40,131 nt of DNA from Patescibacteria group bacterium (GCA_038065915.1 JBBTPZ010000014.1:1-40131), one strand, 5' to 3'; shown: positions 13,570 to 30,816, counted from the first letter of the stretch. Numbers and translations: made by a program. The notes: a model not told the origin generated them from the sequence alone.

Positions 13570-14421
13570 ATGACCAAAGATAATAAAAACAAAGAAAAAG
13601 GACATTATCACCCTCTCACTATAGCGATGCTTAAAATCGGCAAGATTTTTGATGATTTAGGGTTTGAAATAACGGACGGTCCACACATAGAGGACGAATA
13701 TCATAATTTTGATGCACTTAATATCCCCGCGGATCACCCAGCGCGAGATATGTGGGATACCTTTTGGATTAAGACGCAAATTAACGCAGATAAAAAACCG
13801 CAGATAAATGCAGATAAAAACATCGGCGTAAATCTGCGTGAAAATCTGCGAGAATCTGCGTTATTAAGAACTCACACTTCTCCCGTCCAAATTAGATATA
13901 TGGAGAAAAATAAACCTCCCATAAAAATTATTGCTCCCGGTAAAATTTTTAGATATGAAGCAACAGATGCGACACACGAAGCGCAATTCTATCAATTAGA
14001 GGGACTAATGATTACTAAAAACACAGCTCTTACAACCCTTAAGGGTGTTTTGAAAGAGTTTTTAGAAAAATTTTTTGAAGAAAAAATTAATATTCGTTTT
14101 CGTCCAAGTTATTTTCCATTCGTTGAACCCGGACTTGAAGTTGATGCAACCTGTTTTAAATGTGTAAAAAATCTTTCGACGACGCTCAAGACAGGGAAAA
14201 TAAATTCAAGTTGTTCAATATGCAAAGGAACTGGATGGATAGAAATAATGGGCGCAGGGATGGTTCATCCAAATGTCTTAGAAAATTGTGGAATTAATCC
14301 ACAAGAATGGCAAGGTTTTGCATTTGGAGTAGGAATAGACAGATTGGTTATGCTTAAATATGAAATTCCAGACATAAGAATGCTTTATTCGGGGGACTTG
14401 AGATTAACAAATCAATTTTAG
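13570..14421 (+). CDS. pheS: Phenylalanine--tRNA ligase alpha subunit (short form lacking the N-terminal coiled coil)
   Basis: HPARDMWDTFW, LLRTHTSPVQIRYM, FRYEATDATHEAQFYQLEGL and GWIEIMGAGMVHPNVL. Confidence 0.9.
   Translation: MTKDNKNKEKGHYHPLTIAMLKIGKIFDDLGFEITDGPHIEDEYHNFDALNIPADHPARDMWDTFWIKTQINADKKPQINADKNIGVNLRENLRESALLRTHTSPVQIRYMEKNKPPIKIIAPGKIFRYEATDATHEAQFYQLEGLMITKNTALTTLKGVLKEFLEKFFEEKINIRFRPSYFPFVEPGLEVDATCFKCVKNLSTTLKTGKINSSCSICKGTGWIEIMGAGMVHPNVLENCGINPQEWQGFAFGVGIDRLVMLKYEIPDIRMLYSGDLRLTNQF
13775..13860 (+). repeat. GCAGAT-array palindromic element inserted in frame in pheS
   Basis: The left arm has cgcaaat/cgcagat/cgcagat/tgcagat at 13775, 13785, 13799 and 13809. The right arm has atcggcg/atctgcg x3 at 13822, 13832, 13844 and 13854. 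It is translated as TQINADKKPQINADKNIGVNLRENLRES. Confidence 0.8.
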
Positions 14422-26150: not shown

Positions 26151-26162
26151 ATCGCAGATGAA

Positions 26163-26236
26163 CCCCGAAGAAAAGCAAGCTTCCTACGGGGCAGGCGCAG
26201 ATAAAAACCCGCAGATGTTCGCAGATAAAAAACAAG
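26163..26236 (+). repeat. Intergenic solo arm of the GCAGAT array, with a nested GC hairpin
   Basis: cgcagat occurs at 26163, 26206, 26220 and 26230. The spacing would be 10/14/10 if the 33-nt gaaccccgaag...cttcctacggggcagg insert after the first unit were removed. Confidence 0.75.
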
Positions 26237-26278
26237 AAAGCAAAAAAGCAAAAAAAACAAGAAAACAACAAAACAAGA

Positions 26279-26318
26279 AAACCACTTTCTAATTCGCGCG
26301 AATTAGAAAGTGGTTTTT
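26279..26318 (+). terminator. Rho-independent terminator of ychF
   Basis: aaaccactttctaattcgc/gcgaattagaaagtggttt is a perfect stem followed by a T-run. Confidence 0.85.
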
Positions 26319-26346
26319 AAGATAAATAAAGAATGTCTACAATTTT

Positions 26347-26406
26347 AAACTTCCAGCGGTGAAACCGCTGGAAGTTTCCACATCTACGCTATAGCGTAGA
26401 TGTGGA
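26347..26406 (+). other. Two abutting perfect 13-bp hairpins
   Basis: aaacttccagcgg tgaaa ccgctggaagttt (26347-26377) and tccacatctacgc tata gcgtagatgtgga (26377-26406). Confidence 0.6.
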
Positions 26407-26510
26407 AATATGTTTTATTTTTTGTCAAAATTAGTTTTTTAATTATTTTTTTGTTTTCGTGGTTTTATGTCCTCGTGGTTTTATGTCTTTTCTGCTACAA
26501 TATAAATATT

Positions 26511-27756: not shown

Positions 27757-30700
27757 ATGAAAAAATACGACCATTTTAAAATTGAACAAAAATTCCAGAA
27801 AAAATGGGAAAAAGAAGGAATTTATAATACAAAAGAAGACAAAAGCAAACAAAAATATTATTGTCTTGTAGAGTTCCCATATGCATCAGGAGAAGGATTA
27901 CATGTTGGCCATGTTAGAAGTTATACAGCACTTGATATTGTCGCAAGAAAAAAAAGGATGGAAGGACTTAATGTTTTATATCCAATAGGTTGGGATGCGT
28001 TTGGTTTACCAACGGAAAATTATGCGATTAAGACAGGAGTAAATCCTAAAATAATAACTAAAAAAAATACAAATAATTTTAGAAAACAATTAAAATCACT
28101 TGGATTTTCATTTGATTGGTCTCGTGAAATTAATACTTCAAGTCCTGAATATTACAAATGGACTCAGTGGATATTTTTGCAGTTTTTTAAACATGGATTG
28201 GCATACAAAAAAAGAATGCCGATTAATTGGTGTTTGAGTTGTAAGATTGGTTTAGCAAATGAAGAAGTTGTTAATGGTGTTTGTGAAAGGTGTGGAGGAC
28301 AAGTTGAAAAAAGAGAAAAGGAACAATGGATGTTGGCAATCACAAAATATGCCGAAAGATTATATGATGATTTGGACAAGACAGAATTTTTGGAAAAAAT
28401 AAAAATTCAACAAAGAAATTGGATAGGAAAAAGTCACGGCGCACTCATTTCATTCGCGCTTGTAACTTCGCAGATTATTGCAGATAAAAAACTGCAGATA
28501 AACGCAGATGGAAAGATTGTTTTAATTACGAATGTTCAAGAGTTTAGAGAAAATGTAAATATTGATTCAAAATTAAAAATAGAAGGAAGAGAATTTTCTA
28601 TAAAAGAATTAATTAAGTTCAAACTAGATGACGGTTCTTTTTATCTGAAACTCTTTTTAAGCGGTGGGTATGTTTTGGCCGATGATTTAAATAGTAACTC
28701 TTTTATTTTAGTGAAAGAAAAGGATACAAATTTGAAAATAGAAGAAGATGATATAACTTTTGAAAATAAAAAATATAGTTTCAGTTATAAAGCTCATGCA
28801 ATTGCAGAAGAAGTTTTTGGTGAGGAGATATTCAAAAAAGGGGAGAGCGAGACATTCTGGGATTATACATCTGGCAATAATTATTTAAGTTTGGGTATAG
28901 TAGATAAAAATAAAAAAAGATTGGATTTTCTTGGGAAAACAATTAAAGCTGACAAAATTGAAGTAACAAATCTGCGTGAATCTGCATCCAATCTGCGTTC
29001 ATCCGCGACATTTACGAAAGTAAATGTTTTTACGACAAGACCGGACACACTTTTTGGTGCGACGTATTTAGTTTTAGCACCAGAACATGAATTGATTAGA
29101 AAATTTATTGAAAATAAAGAAATAGAAAATATAAAAGAAGTTGAAAAATATATTTCTGAAACTGCAAAAAAGAAAGATATAGACAGAACAGCTGAAGGCA
29201 AACAAAAAACGGGTGTTGAATTAAAGGGAATAAAAGCCACAAACCCCGTAAACAAAAAAGAAATTCCAATTTTCATAGCTGATTATGTTTTAGCCGGATA
29301 CGGGACTGGTGCAATAATGGCTGTGCCGGCACACGATGAACGCGATTATGCCTTTACATCGCAGATGAACGCAGATAAAAAAACGCAGATAGACGCAGAT
29401 AAAATTGAAATAATAAAAGTTATTGAAAGCAATGAAAATTTATACACAGGTTATGGGAAATTAATTAATTCAGGAAAATTTGATGGAATGGAAAGTAATG
29501 AAGCAATAAAGGAAATTACTAAATTTGTTGGTGGGGAATTGAAGACAGTTTATAGTTTGAGGGATTGGATATTTTCAAGACAGAGATATTGGGGAGAACC
29601 TATTCCACTCGTTTTTTGCAACGAGTGCAAAAAACGAGTGGAAAATTCCAAATTACAAATTCCAAATCACAAACAAGTTCCAAATTCAAAATCCAAAATT
29701 CAAAACCAAGAATTTAACGAAGGTGAGTTGTTAAATCCAGGATGGGTTGTTGATGAAAATCTCCCGCTTGAGCTTCCTGATGTAAAAAAGTATGAACCGA
29801 CTGATTCTGGAGAATCACCGCTTGCTTCAGTTGAAAAATGGGTAAATGTTAAATGTCCAAAATGTGGTGGCCCGGCAAAAAGAGAAACAGATACAATGCC
29901 GAACTGGGCTGGTTCTTCTTGGTATTGGTTGAGATATACTGACCCAGAAAATGATAAAGTTTTTGCTGATGAAAAGAAATTAAAATATTGGACTCCCGTT
30001 GATTGGTATAACGGAGGAATGGAACACACGACACTTCACTTGCTTTACTCTCGTTTTTGGCATAAGTTTCTTTTTGATATTGGTTTGGTTCCAACAGACG
30101 AACCATACATAAAGAGAACTTCCCACGGAATGATTCTTGGAGACGGAGGAGAAAAGATGTCAAAGTCCAGAGGAAATGTCATTAATCCCGATGACATAAT
30201 TGAAAGATTTGGAGCCGACTCATTTAGATTGTATGAAATGTTTTTAGGACCGTTTGACCAGCAAACAAGTTGGAATTCTGACGGAGTTGTTGGAACGAGA
30301 AGATTTGTTGAAAAAGTTTATGGTCTTTCCGAAAAAATAGTTGATAGTGAAAATGAAAGTGTAAATAATTTTTTAAACAAAACAATAAAGAAAGTTGGTG
30401 AAGATATTGAAAATATGAAATTTAATACGGCGATAAGTTCAATGATGATGTTTTTAAATTTTGTTTATGATGAAAATAAAATTAGCAAAGATAGTTATAA
30501 AAAATTTCTAAAAATTCTTTCGCCGTTTGCGCCACATGTGACAGAGGAATTGTGGTCAGAAACAGGGGAAAAAGAATCTATTCATAAAAGCAAGTGGCCT
30601 GAATATGATGAAATAAAAGAAAATGAAAATTTTACTATTGTTGTTCAGGTAGATGGAAAAATCAGAGATAAATTTATTGTAGCCAGCAATCTTAGTGAAA

Positions 30701-30816
30701 ATGAAATAAAGGACAAGGCCATTTCTTTGGAGGCGGTTTTAAGATGGGTGGGAGATAAAAAAATAAAAAAAACTATATATATAAAAGACAAGCTTGTAAA
30801 TATTGTTACAATTTAA
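27757..30816 (+). CDS. leuS: Leucine--tRNA ligase carrying several lineage-specific in-frame insertions
   Basis: HVGHVRSY (HIGH), NWIGKS, VFTTRPDTLFGATY, AVPAHDERDY, RQRYWGEPIP and KMSKSRGN. At 1019 aa it is much longer than typical bacterial LeuS. Confidence 0.95.
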   Translation: MKKYDHFKIEQKFQKKWEKEGIYNTKEDKSKQKYYCLVEFPYASGEGLHVGHVRSYTALDIVARKKRMEGLNVLYPIGWDAFGLPTENYAIKTGVNPKIITKKNTNNFRKQLKSLGFSFDWSREINTSSPEYYKWTQWIFLQFFKHGLAYKKRMPINWCLSCKIGLANEEVVNGVCERCGGQVEKREKEQWMLAITKYAERLYDDLDKTEFLEKIKIQQRNWIGKSHGALISFALVTSQIIADKKLQINADGKIVLITNVQEFRENVNIDSKLKIEGREFSIKELIKFKLDDGSFYLKLFLSGGYVLADDLNSNSFILVKEKDTNLKIEEDDITFENKKYSFSYKAHAIAEEVFGEEIFKKGESETFWDYTSGNNYLSLGIVDKNKKRLDFLGKTIKADKIEVTNLRESASNLRSSATFTKVNVFTTRPDTLFGATYLVLAPEHELIRKFIENKEIENIKEVEKYISETAKKKDIDRTAEGKQKTGVELKGIKATNPVNKKEIPIFIADYVLAGYGTGAIMAVPAHDERDYAFTSQMNADKKTQIDADKIEIIKVIESNENLYTGYGKLINSGKFDGMESNEAIKEITKFVGGELKTVYSLRDWIFSRQRYWGEPIPLVFCNECKKRVENSKLQIPNHKQVPNSKSKIQNQEFNEGELLNPGWVVDENLPLELPDVKKYEPTDSGESPLASVEKWVNVKCPKCGGPAKRETDTMPNWAGSSWYWLRYTDPENDKVFADEKKLKYWTPVDWYNGGMEHTTLHLLYSRFWHKFLFDIGLVPTDEPYIKRTSHGMILGDGGEKMSKSRGNVINPDDIIERFGADSFRLYEMFLGPFDQQTSWNSDGVVGTRRFVEKVYGLSEKIVDSENESVNNFLNKTIKKVGEDIENMKFNTAISSMMMFLNFVYDENKISKDSYKKFLKILSPFAPHVTEELWSETGEKESIHKSKWPEYDEIKENENFTIVVQVDGKIRDKFIVASNLSENEIKDKAISLEAVLRWVGDKKIKKTIYIKDKLVNIVTI
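28469..29007 (+). repeat. Composite in-frame insertion in leuS: inverted GCAGAT-array arms bracketing ~460 nt of extra coding sequence
   Basis: The left arm has (c/t)gcagat at 28469, 28479, 28493 and 28503. The right arm has atctgc(g/a) at 28970, 28980 and 28991, plus atccgcg at 29001. The cargo stays open in the leuS frame. Confidence 0.8.
29360..29400 (+). repeat. Solo GCAGAT-array arm in frame in leuS
   Basis: cgcagat at 29360, 29370, 29384 and 29394 (spacing 10/14/10), translated as SQMNADKKTQIDADK just after the AHDERDY motif. Confidence 0.8.
29646..29706 (+). repeat. 7-bp-periodic low-complexity tract (TNCAAAN)n inside leuS
   Basis: The units are ttccaaa ttacaaa ttccaaa tcacaaa caag ttccaaa ttcaaaa tccaaaa ttcaaaa. 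It is translated as NSKLQIPNHKQVPNSKSKIQNQ. Confidence 0.7.

What the first reader, a model, noticed from the sequence alone, without database searches (positions are those of the whole stretch)
28469..29007. leuS carries a 'loaded' version of the GCAGAT element: inverted arms bracketing an in-frame ~150-aa extra domain
In bacterial LeuS the sequence NWIG(R/K)S..(about 15 aa)..(V/Y)TTRPDT is short; E. coli reads NWIGRSEGVEITFNV..TLTVYTTRPDT, from memory. Here about 185 residues lie between NWIGKSHGALISF and KVNVFTTRPDT.

The insert begins with four GCAGAT units (28469-28509, IIADKKLQINADGK) and ends with four inverted ATCTGC units (28970-29007, TNLRESASNLRSSA). These are the same arms that form the 'empty' 86-nt element in pheS. 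The relationship resembles an autonomous-element-versus-MITE pair, but the cargo is a translated domain, not a transposase. From memory, its FSIKELIKFKLDDGSFYLKLFL...FWDYTSGNNYLSLGIV pattern resembles DUF4178.

The arms could also base-pair in the mRNA and bring the insert ends together. This raises the untested possibility of RNA-level removal.
Basis: partly seen in the sequence, partly recalled or inferred. Interest (0 to 1): 0.85.

Follow-up and report, generated by a model that had tools for sequence, protein, structure and literature searches.

The report
Repeat-flanked extra domain inside LeuRS
The leucyl-tRNA synthetase gene of this small-genome (Patescibacteria) bacterium carries an in-frame ~185-residue extra domain, bracketed by the two halves of a palindromic repeat that elsewhere brackets a nuclease gene, so it looks like a mobile cassette that adds whole domains to essential proteins.

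Summary
LeuS (27757-30816) has 185 residues where T. thermophilus LeuRS has 5. The insert is four GCAGAT units, a complete DUF4178-like beta-domain, then three exact ATCTGC units plus one ATCCGC. An independent 686-kb assembly shows the same layout.

The arms belong to a cross-phylum family of CGCAGAT-unit palindromic repeats. In Planctomycetes, and in-frame in Patescibacteria LeuRS (same site), RecG, LepA and DHFR, the same arms bracket a GxxExxY (PDDEXK_3) nuclease ORF. Empty or arm-only copies sit in-frame in pheS, at a second leuS site and at the RecG site.

The closest relatives lack the insert. In a second genome the inner arms plus cargo are 99.4% identical, against 84% for the flanks. 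The first differences on each side form a compensatory arm base pair.

Best reading: a translated, repeat-bounded cassette of mobile origin, with the arms translated as disordered linkers.

RNA-level removal is not supported. Every copy examined is open in frame.

One caveat is serious. A distant LeuRS (40% identity) has the same domain at the same site with no arms. Domain gain and arm gain may therefore be separate events.

The parts
27757..30816 (+). leuS, a single 1019-aa ORF; host gene of the cassette
28470..28509 (+). Left arm: four GCAGAT units with spacing 10/14/10, translated as QIIADKKLQINAD
28513..28968 (+). Cargo: a complete DUF4178-like beta-domain. It is colinear from first to last residue with free-standing 147-153-aa proteins; their start Met aligns to Thr (ACG) here.
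28970..29006 (-). Right arm: three exact ATCTGC units plus ATCCGC, translated as NLRESASNLRSSA
28494..28985 (+). Segment that is 99.4% identical (489/492) to the leuS of a second genome (L001), whose flanks are 84% identical. It covers the two inner units of each arm plus the cargo.
29361..29400 (+). Solo arm at a second leuS site: four GCAGAT units, in frame as SQMNADKKTQIDAD. All four hexamers are unchanged in three genomes.
13776..13861 (+). Empty palindromic element, in frame in pheS (27 extra aa)
26154..26226 (+). Intergenic GCAGAT array just after the ychF stop codon. The position is shared with L001 and L002; the number of units varies.

Best explanation
The feature is a translated, in-frame cassette of mobile origin. 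A complete DUF4178-like beta-domain ORF, without its start and stop codons, lies in the loop of a CGCAGAT-unit palindromic repeat element. The element sits in a short surface hairpin of LeuRS just before the TTRPDT motif of the CP1 editing domain.

The arms belong to a widespread repeat family. Its gene-carrying form holds a GxxExxY (PD-(D/E)XK) nuclease ORF that reads through the arms.

**Shown**
- The arms bracket different cargos at the same and at other sites.
- Loaded, arm-only and empty states exist.
- Close relatives lack the cassette.
- The inner arms plus cargo were exchanged recently between lineages.
- The GCAGAT hexamers are conserved at nucleotide level.
- The arm peptides are predicted to be disordered linkers around a confidently folded domain.

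**Inferred**
- The arms are recognised as repeated sites or as a hairpin/cruciform, most plausibly by a GxxExxY nuclease acting in trans.
- Break repair then copies the loop content into an arm-bearing target.
- Selection on the essential host gene keeps only in-frame, stop-free insertions in tolerant loops.
- The DUF4178 domain is a passenger that LeuRS tolerates or has put to use.
For: **Insert and arms**
- The insert and its arms are confirmed at the stated coordinates.
- The cargo matches the full length of free-standing DUF4178 proteins at 49-56% identity, with 39 invariant columns.
- The AF2 model has mean pLDDT 85.6. The cargo scores above 90 and the arm peptides below 50.

**Presence and absence**
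- The insert is absent in the close relatives P0009, P0011, P0012 and P0013 and present in P0010.

**Recent exchange**
- Window against L001 is 489/492 identical inside 28494-28985 and 84.4% identical over 3793 flanking bases. The best 200-nt window outside the cassette is 93%.
- All 3 differences inside the cargo are synonymous.
- The first differences on each side, 28493 T/C and 28986 A/G, pair with each other in the arm helix.

**Same arms with other cargos**
- A PDDEXK_3 ORF lies between the same kind of arms at the same LeuRS site in L004.
- The same is seen in RecG of L062.
- The same is seen in LepA and DHFR.
- An arm-only version sits at the same RecG site in L030.
- A Pirellulales GxxExxY ORF starts inside a CGCAGAT arm and ends in an ATCTGCG arm.
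- GxxExxY hits in L035, L063, L070 and L084 all lie within 300 nt of arrays.

**Family distribution**
- The genome scan found more than 114 loci. My own estimate of the chance expectation is about 17. The loci span many phyla.
- All four site-2 hexamers are intact in three genomes, while the spacers vary.

**Assembly**
- An independent assembly confirms the layout.
Against: - P0129 (L120), a LeuRS only 40% identical, carries the same domain at the same site with no arms. It includes the 6-residue N-terminal extension shared with the window copy. The domain could therefore have entered LeuRS without arms.
- Other domains at this site (Ham1-like, hydrolase, NUDIX) have no inverted repeats.
- No GxxExxY gene lies in the 40-kb window, and the rest of the genome was not readable.
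- No arm-only allele of leuS site 1 was found among about 70 metagenome LeuRS loci.
- The near-identity to L001 rests on one 6.4-kb short-read MAG contig. An assembler could switch strains at repeats.
- Only about 10% of the 120 GxxExxY homologs show arm peptides inside their called ORF.
- No nuclease activity or arm recognition has been shown for any GxxExxY protein. PMC3424549 lists the function of PDDEXK_3 as unknown.
Confidence: 0.55

Rival explanations
1. Two separate events. A DUF4178-like domain entered the LeuRS hairpin by ordinary domain accretion, as in P0129. Later, two solo GCAGAT arrays lodged independently in its two linkers, which are the only tolerant spots. The inverted layout is then a coincidence of where insertions are tolerated.
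For: - P0129 has the domain without arms, and it shares the N-terminal extension with the window copy.
- Solo arrays exist at leuS site 2, in intergenic DNA and in L016.
- This hairpin is a general hot spot for domains without repeats and for small repeats.
Against: - The inner arm units travel with the cargo in the near-identical tract, and the tract ends at a compensatory arm base pair.
- The same arms bracket a different cargo at the same site (L004) and at four other host sites.
- Both arms have four units in the window, L001 and L004.
- Closer relatives (73-82% identity over the aligned length) lack both the domain and the arms, so the domain arrived by transfer in any case.
Confidence: 0.22
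2. RNA-level removal. The arms pair in the transcript, and the loop is cut out, bypassed or processed, so mature LeuRS lacks the insert.
For: - The predicted arm duplex is strong: -39 kcal/mol, about 7 standard deviations below shuffles. The minimum-energy fold of the insert closes on the arms.
- There is one compensatory pair between genomes.
Against: - The leuS insert is open in frame with no stops (0 of 20,000 shuffles stay open), and so are all the sibling cassettes examined in LeuRS, RecG, LepA, DHFR and PheS.
- The cargo keeps the conserved residues of the free-standing protein family, and its three differences are synonymous.
- No Rfam family matches, including group I and II introns.
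- No Hint/intein domain is found.
- Spacers between units are not complementary in the coding copies.
Confidence: 0.05
3. Assembly artefact. The insert, or its near-identity to L001, was created by misassembly at repeats.
For: - Repeats break short-read contigs. L160 ends about 40 nt before the left arm.
- L001 is a 6.4-kb MAG contig.
Against: - The 685,866-bp contig L203 runs through the whole cassette, colinear at 99.5%.
- The frame is intact, and the cargo in L001 differs at 3 sites, so it is not a simple copy.
Confidence: 0.04

Closest known systems
Rickettsia palindromic elements (RPEs)
   Same: Both are dispersed palindromic repeats that insert in frame in unrelated housekeeping genes and are translated as extra peptide segments at tolerated sites (review PMC10969869). 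The empty pheS element and the solo arm at leuS site 2 behave in this way.
   Different: RPEs are about 150 bp, confined to Rickettsia, and carry no gene. Here the loop of the palindrome holds a whole folded domain (DUF4178-like) or a nuclease ORF. The repeat unit (CGCAGAT) recurs across phyla.
REPIN-RAYT systems
   Same: Both have many short palindromic repeats in inverted pairs, plus a few protein genes flanked by the same repeats (PMC3116915, PMC3337134). The Pirellulales GxxExxY gene sits between complete palindromes.
   Different: The flanked protein here is a PD-(D/E)XK-family GxxExxY protein, not a Y1 (IS200/IS605-like) transposase. REPs are extragenic and lineage-specific. These arrays are often coding in Patescibacteria, and their unit is shared across phyla.
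Inteins and homing-endonuclease genes
   Same: Both are in-frame insertions, some carrying nuclease ORFs, in conserved regions of essential proteins (the RecG motif II-III region, the LepA G domain, LeuRS). Distribution among relatives is patchy, and identity is higher than in the flanks.
   Different: There is no Hint/intein domain or splicing motif, so the insert must stay in the mature protein. The element is bounded by inverted repeats. The leuS cargo is not a recognisable nuclease.
MITE and autonomous transposon pairs
   Same: Short empty inverted-repeat elements coexist with longer gene-carrying elements that have the same ends.
   Different: No transposase family is recognised. Target-site duplications are not established: a 7-nt ATTAAGA repeat flanks the pheS copy, but this was not tested further. 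The ends are arrays of a 6-7-nt unit rather than a unique terminal inverted repeat.
Idiosyncratic domain insertions in aminoacyl-tRNA synthetases
   Same: An extra domain sits in a surface loop of LeuRS. Patescibacteria LeuRS carry NUDIX, Ham1-like, hydrolase and nuclease domains at three hot spots.
   Different: Most of those inserts have no flanking inverted repeats. This one has them, and it shows signs of recent exchange.

Membership tests
DUF4178 (PF13785) | Significant match to the Pfam profile | tested here: inconclusive
   The window cargo scores E=2.2e-4 and 21.8 bits, below the cut-off of 25. All 8 aligned family members hit PF13785, with a best E of 5.1e-7. NCBI names homolog P0005 a DUF4178 protein. 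This is a divergent, rare subfamily: 39 representatives among 1.84 billion proteins.
Rickettsia palindromic elements | Palindromic repeat inserted in frame in protein genes and translated | tested here: met
   pheS has 27 extra aa, leuS sites 1 and 2 carry arms, and all copies are in an open frame.
Rickettsia palindromic elements | Belongs to the RPE sequence families of Rickettsia; about 150 bp and carrying no gene | tested here: not met
   The host is a Patescibacteria bacterium. The unit is CGCAGAT, and the element carries a 456-nt ORF. Sequence similarity to RPE consensus sequences was not computed.
REPIN-RAYT | The repeat-flanked gene encodes a Y1 (IS200/IS605-type) transposase | tested here: not met
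   The flanked ORFs are PDDEXK_3 / TIGR04256 GxxExxY or DUF4178-like.
REPIN-RAYT | Dispersed inverted repeat doublets that share sequence with the gene's flanks | tested here: met
   27 of 114 loci have opposed arrays within 150 nt. The L201 gene is flanked by complete palindromes.
Intein | Hint-domain splicing blocks and conserved junction residues | tested here: not met
   There is no Hint/intein Pfam hit on LeuS or on the insert. The junctions are arm peptides, not C/S/T at +1 or a terminal HN.
Group I / group II intron or other known structured RNA | Match to a covariance model | tested here: not met
   An Rfam 15 scan of the whole window at E<=1 found only one chance miRNA hit elsewhere.
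MITE / autonomous transposon pair | Terminal inverted repeats shared by short and long forms | tested here: met
   The arms of the pheS, leuS, L004, L062 and L201 copies share the same unit and spacing.
MITE / autonomous transposon pair | Target-site duplication and a recognised transposase | tested here: inconclusive
   ATTAAGA lies at 13768-13774 and 13863-13869, flanking the pheS copy. No clear duplication is seen at leuS. No transposase family matches; the candidate enzyme is a PD-(D/E)XK protein of unknown function.
Anti-phage defence systems (PADLOC) | Match to a defence-protein model | tested here: not met
   Neither cargo has a PADLOC hit.

The most novel reading that the evidence does not exclude
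CGCAGAT-unit palindromes together with a GxxExxY PD-(D/E)XK nuclease could form a previously undescribed, cross-phylum class of selfish element. In Patescibacteria it would home in frame into tolerant loops of essential genes without any splicing. Its loop could exchange cargo, so that it delivers whole folded domains into proteins. The leuS DUF4178 insert would be one such delivery caught soon after the event.
Probability: 0.35. Interest if true: 0.9.

Novelty: new variant of a known kind. Interest (0 to 1): 0.8.

Why it matters
If the reading is right, it shows a concrete route by which a repeat element adds a complete domain to an essential enzyme. This was proposed in principle for Rickettsia palindromic elements but, as far as I know, has not been seen with a whole domain as cargo.

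It also gives the large GxxExxY/PDDEXK_3 family, whose function is unknown, a testable role as the enzyme partner of a repeat family found across phyla.

It helps explain why proteins of small-genome Patescibacteria carry so many odd insertions. LeuRS alone has three hot spots.

It offers a natural set of tolerated insertion sites in LeuRS, PheS, RecG, LepA and DHFR.

Tried and rejected
- **Structure search.** Foldseek of the confident AF2 model against the PDB gave nothing significant (best E=0.02, TM below 0.25). The fold gives no functional lead.
- **Rfam.** The scan found no RNA family at any arm.
- **Other protein libraries.** PADLOC gave no hit for either cargo. NCBIfam gave none for the DUF4178-like cargo and only the uninformative GxxExxY name (TIGR04256) for the nuclease cargo.
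- **Literature.** Searches for GxxExxY, PDDEXK_3, DUF4178, the repeat sequence itself, and CPR in-frame palindromic insertions found no description of this element.
- **Arm-only allele at leuS site 1.** None was found among 80 metagenome LeuRS loci (about 70 readable at site 1). Only other small repeats occur there: tandem runs of 7-8-nt units such as TTCCAAAT and ATTTCGA, and an unrelated short palindrome in L124.
- **Empty site in L002.** It carries AAATCT(N) heptamer repeats that vaguely resemble right-arm units. I did not treat this as an arm remnant.
- **Free-standing cargo genes.** The P0005 locus (L005) has no arms around the gene.
- **Rejected mechanisms.**
  - Inversion switching between the arms would put stop codons into an essential gene.
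  - Ribosomal bypass is implausible because the span is about 540 nt and open in frame.

Full report
**1. The observation**

The window has about 32% G+C, and every long ORF lies on the + strand. The ORF 27757-30816 is an uninterrupted 1019-aa LeuRS.

Against T. thermophilus LeuRS (1h3n), aa 1-235 align to residues 1-236 and aa 421-624 align to residues 242-442. So 185 residues replace a 5-residue turn just before the TTRPDT motif of the CP1 editing domain.

The insert starts with four GCAGAT units at 28470, 28480, 28494 and 28504. It ends with three exact ATCTGC units at 28970, 28980 and 28991, followed by ATCCGC at 29001. GCAGAT occurs 30 times in the window against 12 expected, clustered in five arrays.

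The two arms can pair at -39 kcal/mol, against -13.3 +/- 3.5 for shuffles. The pheS element (13776-13861) uses the same units and is a 27-aa in-frame insertion relative to solved PheS structures.

A second assembly, the 685,866-bp ENA contig L203, is colinear with the window through the whole cassette at 99.5% identity. The layout is therefore not a misassembly.

**2. The cargo**

The 152 residues between the arms align end to end with free-standing 147-153-aa proteins of Patescibacteria at 49-56% identity, with 39 invariant columns. The start Met of those proteins corresponds to Thr (ACG) in leuS, and their stop codon is replaced by read-through into the right arm.

Pfam DUF4178 matches the window copy weakly (21.8 bits against a cut-off of 25), but it matches all eight aligned members.

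AlphaFold2 gives a confident all-beta domain with pLDDT above 90. Both arm peptides score below 50, so they are predicted to be disordered linkers. No solved structure resembles the model.

The family is rare: 39 representatives in 1.84 billion proteins. Its closest free-standing member, P0001, sits between archaeal-type rpl14 and rpl24 genes. DUF4178 itself has no known function (PMC11237479).

**3. The arms are a widespread repeat family linked to a nuclease gene**

My own estimate of the chance expectation is about 17. The loci come from:
- Bacteroidota
- Acidobacteriota
- Omnitrophota
- Elusimicrobia
- Ignavibacteria
- Cyanobacteria
- Patescibacteria
- other phyla

Of the 114 loci, 72 show three or more CGCNGAN units, and 27 have an opposed array within 150 nt.

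The same arms bracket a GxxExxY/PDDEXK_3 ORF in several places.

| Locus or protein | Host and site |
|---|---|
| L004 | the same LeuRS hairpin, in a LeuRS 55% identical to the window's |
| L062 | RecG, between helicase motif II and the TATPIPRT motif |
| P0169, P0170, P0172, P0209 | LepA |
| P0168 | DHFR |

In a Pirellulales genome the free-standing GxxExxY ORF starts inside a CGCAGAT arm (ATG ACG CAG ATA GAC GCA GAT) and ends in an ATCTGCG arm. Complete palindromes lie on both sides. At least 8-11 of 120 GxxExxY homologs show such arm peptides.

In the scanned loci, all four further GxxExxY hits (L035, L063, L070, L084) lie within 300 nt of an array. At the RecG site, L030 carries only a short arm where L062 carries arms plus cargo.

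In Patescibacteria loci 15 of 20 arrays lie inside long open frames, against 21 of 140 elsewhere. Some Patescibacteria loci were chosen for their genes, so this comparison is biased.

Only one reading frame of the A-rich forward array is free of stops. This explains why the same QIxADKK peptide recurs.

**4. Signs of mobility or exchange**

The closest LeuRS relatives (P0009, P0011, P0012, P0013; 73-82% identity over the aligned length) lack the insert. P0010 has it. Gene order around leuS is conserved.

Between the window and the P0010 contig (L001), 3793 flanking bases are 84.4% identical. In contrast, 28494-28985 is 489/492 identical, and no 200-nt window outside the cassette exceeds 93%.

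The three differences inside the cargo are synonymous. The first differences on each side, 28493 T/C and 28986 A/G, are partners in the arm helix, so they form a compensatory pair. The outer arm units differ about as much as the flanks.

This pattern suggests that arms at this site are older than the split of the two lineages, and that the loop with its inner arms was exchanged recently. At leuS site 2, all four GCAGAT hexamers are unchanged in three genomes while the spacers and flanks vary.

**5. What argues for caution**

A partial LeuRS from a distant lineage (P0129/L120, 40% identity) has the same domain at the same site at 55% identity. It includes the short N-terminal extension shared with the window copy, but it has no arms at peptide or DNA level.

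The hairpin is a general hot spot. About 50 of 70 metagenome LeuRS have the minimal 31-residue span. Others carry Ham1-like, hydrolase or NUDIX domains without inverted repeats. One carries a DUF559 nuclease between a different inverted repeat.

No arm-only allele of this leuS site was found. No GxxExxY gene lies in the window. The near-identity rests on one short MAG contig.

**6. Mechanism**

The best-supported reading is a translated, repeat-bounded cassette of mobile origin, as set out under Best explanation.

The steps shown are:
- the anatomy of the insert
- translation-compatible conservation of the cargo
- cargo diversity between identical arms
- loaded and arm-only states
- recent exchange of the inner cassette
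- nucleotide-level conservation of the repeat units

The steps inferred are:
- recognition of the arms by a GxxExxY nuclease
- copying of the loop content by break repair
- any benefit of the domain to LeuRS

RNA-level removal is unlikely. The leuS insert and every sibling cassette examined are in frame and free of stops, and no known RNA family or intein matches.

**7. Comparison and novelty**

The element works like Rickettsia palindromic elements (in-frame palindromes; PMC10969869). It is laid out like REPIN-RAYT systems (a repeat-flanked gene plus many repeats; PMC3116915). It is a member of neither: the unit, the host range, the enzyme family and the presence of cargo all differ.

No paper in the searchable library describes these repeats or links GxxExxY to repeats. 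PDDEXK_3 is listed with unknown function (PMC3424549).

I rate the finding a new variant of a known kind, with high interest.

Noticed in passing
window 29629-29745 (leuS aa 625-663): There is a third in-frame insert of 39 aa after the PLVFCxxC motif. It is built from TTCCAAAT-like 7/14-nt tandem repeats (peptide KLQIPNHKQVPNSKSKIQNQ). Its distribution among relatives is patchy: present in P0010, P0009, P0012 and P0019, absent in P0011, P0013 and P0015. Similar repeats occur at site 1 in other LeuRS (L145).
   Followed up: partly
Patescibacteria LeuRS proteins P0020, P0060, P0027, P0036, P0052, P0124, P0030; loci L121, L123, L155, L156, L164: LeuRS of many Patescibacteria carry whole extra domains at three hot spots: NUDIX, Ham1-like, alpha/beta-hydrolase and DUF559 nuclease. 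The DUF559 insert (L164) is flanked by a different CCCTCCC/GGGAGGG inverted repeat (duplex z = -7.8).
   Followed up: partly
window 26154-26420: The intergenic region after ychF holds a GCAGAT array, then A-rich 8/25-nt tandem repeats (26227-26282), then three strong hairpins. A similar array followed by the reverse complement of a similar A-rich tract is seen in L080.
   Followed up: no
window 13768-13774 and 13863-13869: A 7-nt direct repeat ATTAAGA flanks the empty pheS element. It may be a target-site duplication or it may be chance.
   Followed up: no
L201 1840-2450 (Pirellulales): The 3' end of a second GxxExxY ORF lies directly upstream of the intact one, separated by a complete palindrome. 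This suggests elements inserting next to or into each other.
   Followed up: no
L204 138-722: The closest free-standing relative of the cargo (P0001, 194 aa) is wedged between archaeal-type rpl14 and rpl24 genes. That is an unusual place for an extra ORF, and no arms are present.
   Followed up: partly
L002 10700-10745 and 11123-11260: The relative without the site-1 insert has AAATCT(N) heptamer repeats at the empty site. At site 2, after the shared solo arm, it has about 40 extra residues with no right arm.
   Followed up: no
window 1-40131: All long ORFs are on the + strand, and cumulative GC skew rises monotonically. The window therefore lies within one leading-strand arm of the chromosome.
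   Followed up: no
L016 2769-2865; L030 6194-6290: In-frame arrays occur in further Patescibacteria proteins. One is nine forward units (TQINADETQINADNK...) in a 422-aa ORF. Another is a reverse array (DDLRRSASTDLRSSASYLRPSA) in a thioredoxin-like ORF.
   Followed up: no
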